The notes below the pieces were generated by a model. The model saw nothing but the letters and a program-made list of their open reading frames with translations, searched no databases and had not been told where the DNA came from. A stretch of DNA of 64,000 nt from a bacterium CG10_46_32 (lineage in GTDB: Bacteria > Patescibacteriota > Patescibacteriia > UBA2169). Position 1 is the stretch's first letter. Each line of letters starts with the position of its first letter. Positions 28,178 through 29,885 of this stretch are shown piece after piece. The DNA lies in the NCBI GenBank assembly GCA_001889965.1, contig MOEI01000012.1:1170-65169 (forward strand), read 5' to 3'. Both the position numbers and the translations under genes were made by a program.

Positions 28178-29218
28178 GCGCCTTCCAATTTGTTTTTGAA
28201 TGGTTAAACTTCTGCAATGCACCAAAACCCCCAAATACGATTGCAAAGATTGATTAAATGATTCTGTCCCAATAAAACCATGCCGCAACTGCTCCTTTTT
28301 GACGCGCATCTTCTTGATAATCCTGTGCTTCGTTTTGGTGCGGATAACGCGATAGTGCGGAAGCGCGACATATCCCAAAAAATCAATCCCCTGATTAATT
28401 TTACGCACGAAAACAGTATCGTCATGAATCTCCAGTTTTAAGTTTTGATCCAAGAATAGCCTAGCACGCGCCGCGCTATCTTTCAAATAATCAGGGTCTC
28501 GGTGCAACATCACAAAATCATCACAATACCTGACATAATACTTTTGGCATAACGAATGCTTGACGTATTGGTCTAATTCATTTAAATAAACGTTTGCAAA
28601 CAACTGACTTGTTACATTGCCCAAGGGAATCCCTTTTCCGTGCACTATTGAAAAACTGCCTATGATATCCCCAATAAGACGCAATGCGGCATCATCCTGA
28701 ATAGTTTTTTGCATAATCCCGCGCAACACGCCGTGGTCAACCGTATCAAAAAACTTTTTAATATCACAAGTAAGCGCGTACGCGGTTTTGGTAAAATTAT
28801 CAGTTGCCTTGCGCGCGAACCGCTCAAGGCGGCTTACTCCCTTGTGCGTCCCCTTGCCAATCCTGCACGAATACGAATCAAAAATAAAATGCGGATCAAA
28901 CTCATGGTATAGTACCCTAAACACTGCCTGGTGCATAAGCCTGTCCCGCACATCGGCTTTATGTATGTGCCTTAATTTCGGATCGCGTACATAAAATGAA
29001 CTATACGGCCCATGCGCATAGCGCCCCGTCCGAAGGTCGTCACGCAAGCCAAATAGAGCATCCTCAAGCGCAAACTCAAATTCCCGCACATCTTGCTTTT
29101 TCCGCTTGCCTCGCCTAAACTCATACCATGCGGAGAAAAGATTCTCCAGGCTTATAATCCTCTCAAACAAGCTATTAACACCAGTATGCCCGCCCCCCCC
29201 CCAACGGAGTGGTTCCAA
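28178..29218 (-). CDS. DGR-1 reverse transcriptase (reads through in frame into holA; start uncertain)
   Basis: RT motifs: HIHKADVRDRLMHQAV, CDIKKFFDTVDH, IPLGNVTSQLFANVYLNELD (the DGR-type [LIV]GxxxSQ) and YVRYCDDFVM (YxDD). It is a paralog of the stand-alone RT at 58243-59268. The only start in the track is the TTG at 29218. Confidence 0.85.
29193..29202. repeat. homopolymeric C10 (G10 on minus strand) tract at the divergent RT-1 / avd-1 start region
   Basis: Plus strand reads gcccg-cccccccccc-aacgg. The tract lies inside the annotated RT-1 ORF (codons WGGGG) and 7 nt upstream of the avd-1 GTG. Confidence 0.9.
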
Positions 29219-29562
29219 TTGTCCATGCCATTACTCATGTGTACAAGGAATTGTACCAGCTTGGGAAAAAACTTCCAAAACAAGACCGATACGGCATGCA
29301 CCGGTGCATTACCGAAGTATGCCTCAAAAGCCTCAAGCTTGCGATAGAGGCGGCTTTGTCCGTGAAACAGGAAAAAGCGCCTATCCTAAAAAAACTGCGG
29401 GTGGAAATTGGCGTGCTTAAGCAATTGGTGCGCCTGCTCTATGAATTAAATCGTATCCCACAAAAGGCCTATTTCGGACTTGAACAACAACTCTGTGAAA
29501 TATCCAAAATGGCCGGTGGATGGAGCAAGTATGCTGATATGCACAAAACAAAAGGAGCATAA
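29209..29562 (+). CDS. avd: DGR-1 accessory variability determinant (Avd-like four-helix-bundle protein)
   Basis: 117 aa, helical, ending ...EISKMAGGWSKY. It is clearly paralogous to the ORF at 59261-59665 (shared LPK..R...G, EK.P, LK, Y..L...L.EI..M.GGW). It is on the opposite strand to the RT, TR and target. Confidence 0.8.
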   Translation: MVPIVHAITHVYKELYQLGKKLPKQDRYGMHRCITEVCLKSLKLAIEAALSVKQEKAPILKKLRVEIGVLKQLVRLLYELNRIPQKAYFGLEQQLCEISKMAGGWSKYADMHKTKGA

Positions 29563-29574
29563 TCGCTCCTTTTG
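29541..29574 (-). terminator. terminator-like hairpin immediately 3' of TR1 (overlaps the avd-1 stop codon)
   Basis: Minus strand: caaaaggagc-gattat-gctccttttg followed by ttttgtg. It could alternatively be a DGR RNA priming/spacer hairpin. Confidence 0.5.
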
Positions 29575-29576
29575 CA

Positions 29577-29694
29577 GAAACTATCGCACGAGCACGCAGG
29601 TTCGCGTTGGCATTCTGCGGGTGGTTCCAGTTCAGGTTCAGCGCGCCGCCGTTCCAGTTCACGTTCGGCACATGGCCATCCGAATTGCGGGAAC
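29577..29694 (-). repeat. DGR-1 template repeat (TR1)
   Basis: 118-nt gap-free alignment to 29961-30078. Read in the VR frame it is Asn(AAC)-rich: SRNSDGHVPNVNWNGGALNLNWNHPQNANANLRARAIVS. Confidence 0.88.
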
Positions 29695-29885
29695 TCGTGT
29701 AATGCGCGGCTTCATCCATTGCTCCGGCAACCTTTTACAAGGCCTCCTGTGTTTACCAATACTTTGTTGGCTGTGTTTTGAGTCTCCGCGAAAAGCGTAC
29801 ACTCACCAAAGCCGGGCACGTAGTTTCTTGAATATAGCAAATCGTTATCCCGTGGGACCGATTGTAGTAGCCATGTGTAATAATA

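What the first reader, a model, noticed from the sequence alone, without database searches (positions are those of the whole stretch)
29209..29752. Shared non-canonical DGR layout: avd inverted, TR on its own between two terminator-like hairpins, RT not obviously co-transcribed with TR
In both elements the order on the minus strand is the same. It runs target gene, intrinsic terminator (29886-29922 / 60028-60076), a spacer of about 190-230 nt, TR, a GC hairpin followed by a T-run (29541-29574 / 59629-59659), avd in antisense orientation, and then the RT. The mutated adenines are on the minus strand, so the TR RNA must be minus-sense. The plus-strand avd is therefore convergent with the TR, and the hairpin sits exactly on the avd stop region. 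In the textbook arrangement avd, TR and RT are co-oriented, and the TR-RT spacer RNA provides the priming structure. Here the sequence 3' of the TR is either a true terminator, giving a free-standing short TR RNA, or the functional equivalent of the priming spacer hairpin. Both spacers upstream of the TR also share the 10-mer CACAGGAGGC (minus strand; plus-strand coordinates 29742-29751 and 59806-59815). Conservation of the whole layout in two diverged copies argues it is functional rather than a rearrangement accident.
Basis: partly seen in the sequence, partly recalled or inferred. Interest (0 to 1): 0.65.

Follow-up and report, generated by a model that had tools for sequence, protein, structure and literature searches.

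The report
Two CPR-type DGRs, known layout
The window holds two diversity-generating retroelements built in the arrangement already known to be normal for Patescibacteria (accessory gene avd flipped between template and reverse transcriptase), and comparison with about 140 relatives suggests the template is made as its own small structured RNA that ends at the hairpin.

Summary
Both elements run target/VR, terminator, about 190-230 nt, TR, hairpin on the avd stop, antisense avd, RT.

The layout is not new. Wu et al. 2018 (PMC5758913) named it Architecture B3, TR-(avd)-RT, and found it in 90% of CPR DGRs. In my survey avd was inverted in 76/76 and 64/64 related loci.

- An extended -10-like box follows the target terminator.
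- Next comes a leader with strong covariation: 51 pairs, 96% paired against 79% when shuffled.
- The TR is followed by a hairpin plus T-run, present in 51/59 loci on the TR strand and 0/59 on the other strand.
- The antisense-avd stretch has no consensus structure.

The hairpin also fits the "Avd-binding stem-loop" of Handa et al.

One leader segment pairs with the TR 3' flank next to a helix that abuts the TR. I infer that this RNA is a circular permutation of the Bordetella phage DGR RNA. This is inference, not shown.

The shared 10-mer is not conserved in relatives.

Side findings: a G-run or other simple repeat sits at the avd/RT junction, and RT1 is fused in frame to HolA.

The parts
29957..30688 (-). 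E1 target gene. VR is at 29961-30078, at its 3' end.
   Evidence: ORF. TR/VR alignment. No Pfam match.
29887..29921 (-). E1 target-gene intrinsic terminator: 11-bp stem followed by T7.
29879..29887 (-). E1 extended -10-like box TGTATTATT. This is the proposed TR-RNA promoter.
   Evidence: It aligns with TGnTAnAAT boxes in 15 relatives. Function is inferred.
29695..29872 (-). E1 structured leader (E1-type family). Segment AAGAAACTA (29821-29829) lies next to the closing helix (29806-29820 pairing with 29703-29717).
   Evidence: 46 predicted pairs, 32 with compensatory changes, in 16 sequences. Coordinates.
29577..29694 (-). E1 template repeat. TAGTTTCT at 29576-29583 is complementary to the leader segment at 29821-29829.
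29542..29573 (-). E1 hairpin AAAAGGAGC-GATTAT-GCTCCTTTT plus GTTTTGTG. It has terminator shape on both strands, is a candidate Avd-binding stem-loop, and holds the avd1 stop codon in its loop.
29209..29562 (+). avd1, on the strand opposite to the TR and RT.
   Evidence: Pfam PF22296 bAvd, 6e-12.
29193..29202 (-). E1 G10 run at the avd/RT junction.
   Evidence: It is G10 in all six assemblies.
27242..29218 (-). RT1 ORF, which continues in frame into HolA (DNA polymerase III delta). No stop codon separates the two.
   Evidence: Called as one 658-aa product in public assemblies.
60143..60700 (-). E2 target gene. VR is at 60148-60270.
60028..60076 (-). E2 target-gene intrinsic terminator.
   Evidence: 18 pairs, followed by a T-run.
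60021..60029 (-). E2 extended -10-like box TGTTACAAT. This is the proposed TR-RNA promoter.
   Evidence: TGnTAnnnT occurs at this place in 43/59 relatives. Function is inferred.
59795..60014 (-). E2 structured leader. It contains hairpins P1 and P2 and the single-stranded segment AAATGAAGA (59889-59897). Closing helix P3 pairs 59872-59882 with 59797-59807. It encloses P3a (59855-59868), the single-stranded AAATACGATACA (59843-59854) and P3b (59821-59842). The 10-mer lies at 59806-59815.
   Evidence: 51 pairs, 96.4% paired against 79.2% when shuffled, 0/500 shuffles as good. Model R1 hits 59792-59900 at 117 bits.
59672..59794 (-). E2 template repeat.
59660..59668 (-). TCTTCATTT, the TR 3' flank, complementary to leader positions 59889-59897.
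   Evidence: 85.8% paired against 80.3% shuffled and about 50% when slid out of register; cognate -6.84 against permuted -4.78 kcal/mol, 0/500.
59629..59659 (-). E2 9-bp hairpin with a tetraloop plus TTTTGTTTT. It has terminator shape on the TR strand only, is a candidate Avd-binding stem-loop, and is encoded in the last 8 codons of avd2.
59261..59665 (+). avd2. The likely true start is the TTG at 59303, just past the C-run.
   Evidence: Pfam bAvd 1.3e-12, with the match starting at residue 19. Not called by public gene callers.
59279..59295 (-). G11 run (59285-59295) followed directly by TAGAAT (59279-59284). The RT2 ATG lies 10 nt further on.
   Evidence: The run is G10 in assembly L082.
58243..59268 (-). 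RT2.
   Evidence: RVT_1 2e-22. The best solved relative is chain 8ub7_A, deposited simply as 'Reverse transcriptase', 9e-45. I take it from memory to be the Bordetella phage DGR RT.

Best explanation
Both loci are diversity-generating retroelements of the B3 architecture that is typical of Patescibacteria (CPR).

Each element appears to work as three separate expression units.

1. The target gene ends at its own terminator.
2. Right after that terminator an extended -10 promoter starts a small non-coding RNA of about 330 nt in E1 and about 385 nt in E2.
 - The RNA consists of a structured leader, the TR, and a terminal GC hairpin with a U-tract that ends the transcript.
 - The same hairpin is probably the Avd-binding stem-loop.
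3. avd converges on this unit from the other strand. The RT (with holA in E1) has its own start signals just past a G-run at the avd/RT junction.

No structured RNA follows the hairpin. I therefore infer that the functions held by the 140-nt spacer 3' of the TR in the Bordetella phage element have moved to the leader.

- One leader strand pairs first with the TR 3' flank. I read this as the template:primer-like duplex.
- A few bases later the same strand pairs with the segment that abuts the TR 5' end. I read this as the stop-like duplex.
- It is followed by a small hairpin, an A-led single strand and a second hairpin.

This is the phage RNA circularly permuted.

Shown here: the anatomy, its conservation, the covariation and the terminator shape.

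Inferred: the transcript ends, Avd and RT binding, the priming site and the permutation.
For: Identity as DGRs:
- Adenine-specific TR/VR mismatches.
- bAvd and RVT_1 domains.
- The RT's nearest solved relative is 8ub7.

Layout:
- avd is inverted in 76/76 and 64/64 relatives.
- VR lies upstream on the TR strand in 59 and 51 loci.
- B3 is described in PMC5758913.

Promoter: TGnTAnnnT follows the target terminator in 43/59 loci, with a conserved GGTAGTAGG 7-9 nt later.

Leader structure:
- 51 pairs; 412 cells changed on both sides of a pair against 115 in shuffles; about 40% paired when the partner columns are slid out of register.
- One search shows the same kind of support for the E1-type family.
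- R1 hits end at the TR in 69/80 and 17/80 loci.

Hairpin:
- Hairpin plus T-run on the TR strand in 51/59 loci, against 0/59 on the other strand and 3.4% background.
- 44 distinct arm sequences.
- E1-type hairpins are flanked by an A-run and a T-run.
- The avd stop lies before, inside or beyond the hairpin in 22, 34 and 40 loci.

Downstream: zero consensus pairs in the antisense-avd stretch.

Leader to TR-flank duplex.

RT start signals: TAnnnT follows the run in 32/65 loci against 8.8% background, with ATG 7 nt later in 18 of them.

Precedents:
- A free-standing 265-nt TR RNA in Trichodesmium (PMC4143802).
- An Avd-binding stem-loop just 3' of the TR, most often with 9-bp stems.
Against: - There are no transcript data, so the promoter, the terminator and the RNA ends are consensus-shape inferences. 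CPR promoters are poorly known.
- The U-tract overlaps lysine-rich avd codons in many loci.
- The leader:flank helix has only moderate support: 85.8% against 80.3% paired, and it is A/U-rich.
- A 4-bp primer duplex like the phage one could hide in antisense avd and escape a covariation test.
- The E1 and E2 leaders are not detectably homologous.
- VRs are identical in all assemblies of this genome, so current activity is unproven.
- Handa et al. report finding pairings between sequences upstream and downstream of the TR using only 40 nt upstream, in a set that includes CPR DGRs. That may point to a different pairing.
Confidence: 0.6

Rival explanations
1. Read-through model. The hairpin is only an Avd-binding stem-loop. 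One long minus-strand RNA runs from the TR promoter through antisense avd into the RT, as in the phage avd-TR-brt transcript. The priming and RT-binding spacer lies within the antisense-avd RNA.
For: - The phage precedent, in which everything needed lies 3' of the TR.
- Handa et al. list CPR among the groups whose DGRs have a stem-loop 3' of the TR and an upstream:downstream duplex.
- The RT promoter proposed here is only a consensus match.
- The T-run can be read as avd lysine codons.
Against: - RNAalifold finds no pairs at all in about 300 nt of antisense avd in 41 loci, while the leader in the same loci has 51 covarying pairs.
- The T-run follows the hairpin even where the hairpin is intergenic (22 loci).
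- In the E1-type clade the hairpin is flanked by A and T runs, like a bidirectional terminator.
- A -10-like box sits 7 nt before the RT ATG.
Confidence: 0.2
2. The hairpin is simply the terminator of avd (plus strand), or a DNA cruciform like the one downstream of the phage VR. The conserved leader is a regulatory 5' region that plays no part in reverse transcription.
For: - The hairpin lies at the avd 3' end.
- E1-type hairpins also have terminator shape on the avd strand.
- GC-rich inverted repeats matter for DGR target recognition (PMC5758913).
Against: - In the E2-type clade no locus has a T-run on the avd-sense strand (0/59).
- In the phage the TR is distinguished by lacking such a repeat.
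- The leader segment covaries with the TR 3' flank across clades that use different sequences.
Confidence: 0.1
3. The two elements are inherited relics that no longer diversify, so details such as the G-run and the RT-HolA read-through are decay.
For: - VR1 is identical in six assemblies and VR2 in the three other assemblies read, from different samples.
- RT1 lacks its own stop codon.
Against: - All ORFs are intact.
- TR adenines sit at diversifying codon positions and nearly all mismatches are at adenines.
- The RNA structure is under selection in many genomes.
- The RT-HolA fusion is kept in a genome with only 44% HolA identity.
- Consensus assemblies hide minority variants.
Confidence: 0.1

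Closest known systems
DGR cassette Architecture B3, TR-(avd)-RT, of CPR bacteria (Wu et al. 2018, NAR 46:11, PMC5758913); DGR clade 2 of Roux et al. 2021 (PMC8144416)
   Same: Same gene order and strands. Single target upstream. Avd present. The hosts of the closest relatives are Patescibacteria MAGs.
   Different: Nothing differs in layout. These are further members. The papers I could read do not describe the leader RNA, the terminator-like U-tract or the junction repeat.
Bordetella phage BPP-1 DGR RNA (avd 3' end, TR, 140-nt spacer) bound by bRT-Avd (Handa et al., PMC6182149 and 10.1101/2023.10.23.563531)
   Same: - RT2's nearest solved relative is chain 8ub7_A (9e-45), which I take from memory to be the phage RT bRT.
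- A stem-loop of about 9 bp lies just 3' of the TR.
- One RNA strand forms two adjacent duplexes, one with the TR 3' part and one with the segment upstream of the TR.
- That strand is followed by a small hairpin, adenosines, a long single strand and another hairpin.
   Different: - avd is co-oriented in the phage and antisense here.
- In the phage the bridging strand and the RT-binding elements lie 3' of the TR. Here they lie 5' of it, and nothing structured follows the hairpin.
- Here the hairpin carries a U-tract.
Trichodesmium erythraeum DGR TR-RNA (Pfreundt et al. 2014, PMC4143802)
   Same: The TR is transcribed from its own start site as an abundant free-standing ncRNA (265 nt), apart from the RT.
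   Different: It is a cyanobacterial element. Its TR lies downstream of the RT, it has 12 remote targets, and no antisense avd lies between TR and RT.
Simple-sequence contingency loci (homopolymer or short-repeat tracts in promoters or 5' ends of phase-variable genes, e.g. in Neisseria and Campylobacter; PMC5084427, PMC8355987)
   Same: A G7-14 run, or another short repeat, sits at one fixed spot between two divergent genes, directly before a -10-like box. There is one case of a length difference between near-identical strains.
   Different: No phenotype or expression data exist. This has not been reported for DGRs in the papers searched. In E1 the run lies inside the longest RT ORF.

Membership tests
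Diversity-generating retroelement | Reverse transcriptase of the DGR clade | tested here: met
   RVT_1 in both RTs. The best solved relative of RT2 is 8ub7_A, 9e-45 over residues 12-311, ahead of retron and group II RTs.
Diversity-generating retroelement | TR/VR repeat pair whose differences fall at TR adenines, with the VR at the 3' end of a target ORF | tested here: met
   E1 16/17 and E2 19/19 mismatches at adenines. Both VRs end at the target stop codon.
Diversity-generating retroelement | Ongoing diversification of the VR | tested here: inconclusive
   VR1 is identical in six assemblies and VR2 in the three other assemblies read. Only consensus sequences were compared, not reads.
Architecture B3 (Wu et al. 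2018) | Core order TR, avd on the reverse strand, RT; no other accessory gene | tested here: met
   The same holds in 140/140 informative relatives. The definition is read.
Bordetella-type DGR RNA | Avd-binding stem-loop immediately 3' of the TR | tested here: met
   A hairpin of the right size and place is present, with the stem kept through many sequence changes. Binding to Avd is not testable here.
Bordetella-type DGR RNA | Structured spacer of about 140 nt 3' of the TR carrying the primer, thumb ring and RT-binding stem-loop | tested here: not met
   No consensus structure in the 260-350 nt after the hairpin in 41 loci. That stretch is antisense avd.
Bordetella-type DGR RNA | One strand forming adjacent duplexes with the TR 3' part and with the segment just upstream of the TR | tested here: met
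   - The leader strand pairs with the TR 3' flank.
- A few bases on it forms the closing helix, whose 3' strand abuts the TR.
- The strand lies 5' of the TR, not 3' of it.
Intrinsic terminator | GC-rich stem-loop directly followed by a U-tract on the transcribed strand | tested here: met
   Actual termination is not testable with these tools.
Phase-variable contingency locus | Repeat tract whose length differs between otherwise identical strains and changes expression | tested here: inconclusive
   - The tract is conserved in place, and the repeat type is swapped in some loci.
- One G11/G10 difference occurs within 7 kb of 99.96% identity.
- E1 is G10 in six assemblies.
- Expression is not testable.
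Any Rfam family | Match at the gathering score | tested here: not met
   Only sub-threshold chance-level hits in both regions.

The most novel reading that the evidence does not exclude
In Patescibacterial B3 DGRs the template RNA is a free-standing transcript that is a circular permutation of the Bordetella phage DGR RNA. The primer strand, the stop duplex and the RT-binding elements sit in a covarying leader 5' of the TR. Only the Avd-binding stem-loop remains 3' of the TR, where it doubles as the terminator. That arrangement is what lets avd lie antisense. In addition, RT and avd expression would be switched by a slippage-prone repeat at their shared junction.
Probability: 0.4. Interest if true: 0.7.

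Novelty: new member of a known kind. Interest (0 to 1): 0.42.

Why it matters
The layout itself adds only two more B3 DGRs.

The comparative result matters more. It gives a concrete, testable RNA for the largest and least studied DGR clade: defined 5' and 3' ends, a covarying leader, and a candidate primer duplex. If the permutation holds, the RNP architecture solved for the phage element is kept while its connectivity changes. That would explain why avd can be flipped in CPR.

The junction repeat would add an on/off switch to a hypermutation system. The conserved RT-HolA fusion hints at a link between the RT and the replisome. How DGR cDNA enters the target is, to my knowledge, still unresolved.

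Tried and rejected
- Rfam at a permissive threshold found nothing meaningful.
- My first guess for the E1 promoter, TGCTATATT at about 29830, was dropped. The family alignment showed it lies inside the conserved leader, and TGTATTATT at 29879-29887 aligns with the relatives' boxes.
- I tested whether avd is read through the C-run. A start codon beyond the run was found in 23/65 loci. The test was uninformative because a homopolymer reads as proline in every frame.
- Model R1 of the E2-type leader did not find the E1 leader, so I do not claim the two leaders are homologous.
- The 10-mer as a conserved motif is rejected: 0 of 160 related loci carry it.
- A PDB sequence search with Avd2 found nothing.
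- A look-up with the 243-aa target found one contig only, because pipelines call a 231-aa product. That contig ends right after the G-run.
- Searching for length variation in the E1 G-run found none across six assemblies.
- Self-priming by the 3' U-tail folding back was considered. It was left aside as untestable here.
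Full report

- On the minus strand E1 has TR 29577-29694 and VR 29961-30078, with 16 of 17 mismatches at TR adenines.
- E2 has TR 59672-59794 and VR 60148-60270, with 19 of 19 at adenines.
- The plus-strand ORFs 29209-29562 and 59261-59665 match Pfam bAvd above its cut-off (6e-12 and 1.3e-12).
- The minus-strand ORFs match RVT_1.
- The best solved relative of RT2 is chain 8ub7_A (9e-45). I take it from memory to be the Bordetella phage DGR RT.
- Target-gene terminators are at 29921-29895 and 60076-60038.
- The hairpins after the TRs fold at -19.5 kcal/mol (z -4.2) and -21.3 kcal/mol (z -5.7).
- The avd1 stop codon is in the hairpin loop. The last eight avd2 codons are the hairpin.
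- The 10-mer occurs twice in the window against 0.06 expected.

**The layout is already described.** Wu et al. 2018 (PMC5758913) define Architecture B3 as TR-(avd)-RT with avd on the reverse strand. [quoted passage not shown] The closest relatives of both RTs are in Patescibacteria MAGs. These belong to DGR clade 2 of Roux et al..

**Survey.** I fetched two sets of related loci.

- Set 1 holds 80 genome loci related to RT2 (59-71% identity). avd lies directly upstream of the RT on the opposite strand in 76 of the 76 loci that have upstream sequence.
- Set 2 holds 80 metagenome loci related to RT1 (48-69% identity). The same holds in 64 of 64; four more loci have no avd match.
- An adenine-biased TR abuts the avd 3' end, with the VR 240-430 nt upstream on the same strand, in 59 loci of set 1 and 51 of set 2, each count including the corresponding window element.

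**The TR unit.**

*Promoter.* After the target terminator, 43 of 59 loci have TGnTAnnnT. The conserved GGTAGTAGG follows 7-9 nt later. E2 has TGTTACAAT at 60021-60029. E1 has TGTATTATT at 29879-29887, aligned with TGnTAnAAT boxes in its own relatives.

*Leader.* From there to the TR the sequence is a structured RNA.
- In 41 E2-type loci RNAalifold gives 51 pairs in 7 helices.
- On that structure 96.4% of cells pair, against 79.2% in shuffles and about 40% when partners are slid out of register.
- 412 cells have changes on both sides, against 115 in shuffles. No shuffle in 500 reaches the observed value on any measure.
- The E1-type family (16 loci) has its own structure: 46 pairs, 32 of them with compensatory changes.
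- A covariance model of the TR-proximal domain of the E2-type leader hits E2 at 59792-59900 (117 bits) but not E1.
- The same model hits 69 of 80 set-1 loci and 17 of 80 set-2 loci, always on the TR strand and ending at the TR.
- Rfam has no matching family.

*Hairpin.*
- A hairpin plus T-run follows the TR on the TR strand in 51 of 59 loci by a strict rule. Most of the rest differ only in loop size.
- It is found in 0 of 59 on the other strand and in 3.4% of control windows.
- There are 44 distinct arm sequences.
- In the E1-type clade the stem is flanked by an A-run and a T-run, the shape of a bidirectional terminator between convergent genes.
- The avd stop lies beyond the hairpin in 40 loci, inside it in 34, and 2-57 nt short of it in 22. 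The hairpin is therefore not a by-product of coding.
- The next 260-350 nt, which are antisense avd, give no consensus pairs at all in the same 41 loci.

**RT and avd expression.**

- At the junction of the divergent avd and RT starts, 65 of 78 set-1 loci carry a G-run of 6-14 on the RT strand.
- Most of the others carry a different short repeat at the same spot: (GGCT)n, (GATTGCT)n, (GT)n, (GA)n or (GGTT)n.
- In set 2, 34 of 64 loci have the run. It is absent from 28 loci, in many of which the two start codons sit back to back.
- TAnnnT starts 0-5 nt after the run in 32 of 65 loci, against 8.8% background. In 18 of these the ATG follows 7 nt later, as for a leaderless mRNA.
- A -35-like TGGCAA lies so that the run fills a 16-20 nt spacer.
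- One other assembly of this genome differs from the window in only three positions over 7 kb. All three lie within about 25 nt at this junction, and one of them is G10 in place of G11.
- E1 is G10 in six assemblies.

I read this as a candidate slippage switch. That is inference.

**Mechanism.** In the phage element (Handa et al.) the spacer 3' of the TR does the following:
- It forms an Avd-binding stem-loop (Sp3-33).
- It pairs through Sp53-56 with TR118-121 to prime from A56.
- It pairs through Sp59-70 with the segment upstream of the TR. This is the stop duplex.
- It continues into a small stem-loop, adenosines, a single-stranded thumb ring and an RT-binding stem-loop.

Here only the stem-loop follows the TR. 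In the leader:
- AAAUGAAGA (59889-59897) is complementary to UCUUCAUUU (59660-59668) just 3' of the TR.
- Six bases on, the same strand forms the closing helix, whose other strand abuts the TR.
- Inside that helix lie a 5-bp hairpin, the conserved single strand AAAUACGAUACA, and a second hairpin.
- E1 has AAGAAACUA (29821-29829) against UAGUUUCU (29576-29583), directly next to its closing helix.

Evidence for the long-range pairing:
- It is kept with different sequences in different clades. Examples are TCTTTATTT, TCTTCTGT, TCTCTAT, AATTTTTTCTCTA and GTAGTGTC.
- On the alignment it scores 85.8% paired against 80.3% shuffled and about 50% when slid out of register.
- Cognate duplexes average -6.84 kcal/mol against -4.78 (sd 0.24) for permuted partners, with 0 of 500 permutations as low.

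The strand order is the same as in the phage spacer: first the TR 3' part, then the segment upstream of the TR. I therefore propose that the CPR RNA is the phage RNA circularly permuted. With its RT-binding part moved to the 5' side, the transcript can end at the Avd-binding hairpin. A free-standing TR RNA has a precedent in Trichodesmium. The priming nucleotide, protein binding and transcript ends are not shown.

**The 10-mer.** It is real but absent from 160 related loci. In E1 it is the 5' arm of a covarying hairpin. In E2 it spans a conserved single strand and the start of the closing-helix 3' strand. Identity of all ten bases is specific to this genome.

**Limits.**
- There are no RNA data.
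- Promoter and terminator calls rest on consensus shape.
- The long-range helix is short and A/U-rich.
- VRs are identical across assemblies.
- I could not read Paul et al. 2017, which may describe some of this.

**Verdict.** The layout is a known kind. The hairpin probably serves as both terminator and Avd-binding element.

Noticed in passing
window 29193-29202 and 59285-59295; loci L001-L163 at the avd/RT junction: A G-run of 6-14 on the RT strand sits between the divergent avd and RT starts in 65/78 and 34/64 related loci. Several of the loci without it have another simple repeat at the same spot: (GGCT)n, (GT)n, (GA)n, (GGTT)n or (GATTGCT)n. It looks like a slippage-prone switch. No paper found in the search links DGRs to phase variation.
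   Followed up: partly
window 59270-59320 compared with L082:2940-3000: Another assembly of the same genome differs from the window at only three positions in 7 kb. All three lie within about 25 nt at the avd2/RT2 junction: G10 instead of G11, plus two transitions.
   Followed up: partly
window 27242-29218 (-); L084:2821-4776; L085:454-2477: RT1 has no stop codon and runs in frame into HolA (DNA polymerase III delta), giving a 658-aa ORF. The same in-frame fusion is present in L084 (RT 69% identical, HolA 44% identical). In L085 the RT stop codon overlaps the holA ATG (ATGA). Public pipelines call the 658-aa product. This is a possible link between the DGR RT and the clamp loader.
   Followed up: partly
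window 59374-59859 (-) and 29417-29719 (-); gene tables of L081, L082, L165: Public gene callers miss avd2 and instead call a 161-aa ORF on the TR strand that runs across the TR and antisense avd. They also call a 100-aa ORF across TR1. These ORFs have no Pfam match and are probably spurious, so this architecture is easily mis-annotated.
   Followed up: partly
window 57577-58262 (-): A PIN-domain ORF (143 aa, weak PIN_3 match) is preceded by an 85-aa ORF whose start overlaps the RT2 3' end by about 20 nt. This looks like a toxin-antitoxin pair placed directly behind the DGR.
   Followed up: no
window 59795-59812 (-): The 10-mer contains a perfect AGGAGG. In E2 it is followed 6 nt later by an ATG that opens a frame through the TR different from the VR coding frame. 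This is not conserved in relatives and is probably meaningless.
   Followed up: no
window 29961-30078 and 60148-60270: Both VRs are identical in every independent assembly of this genome that was found: six for E1 and the three others read for E2. There is no consensus-level sign of recent diversification.
   Followed up: partly
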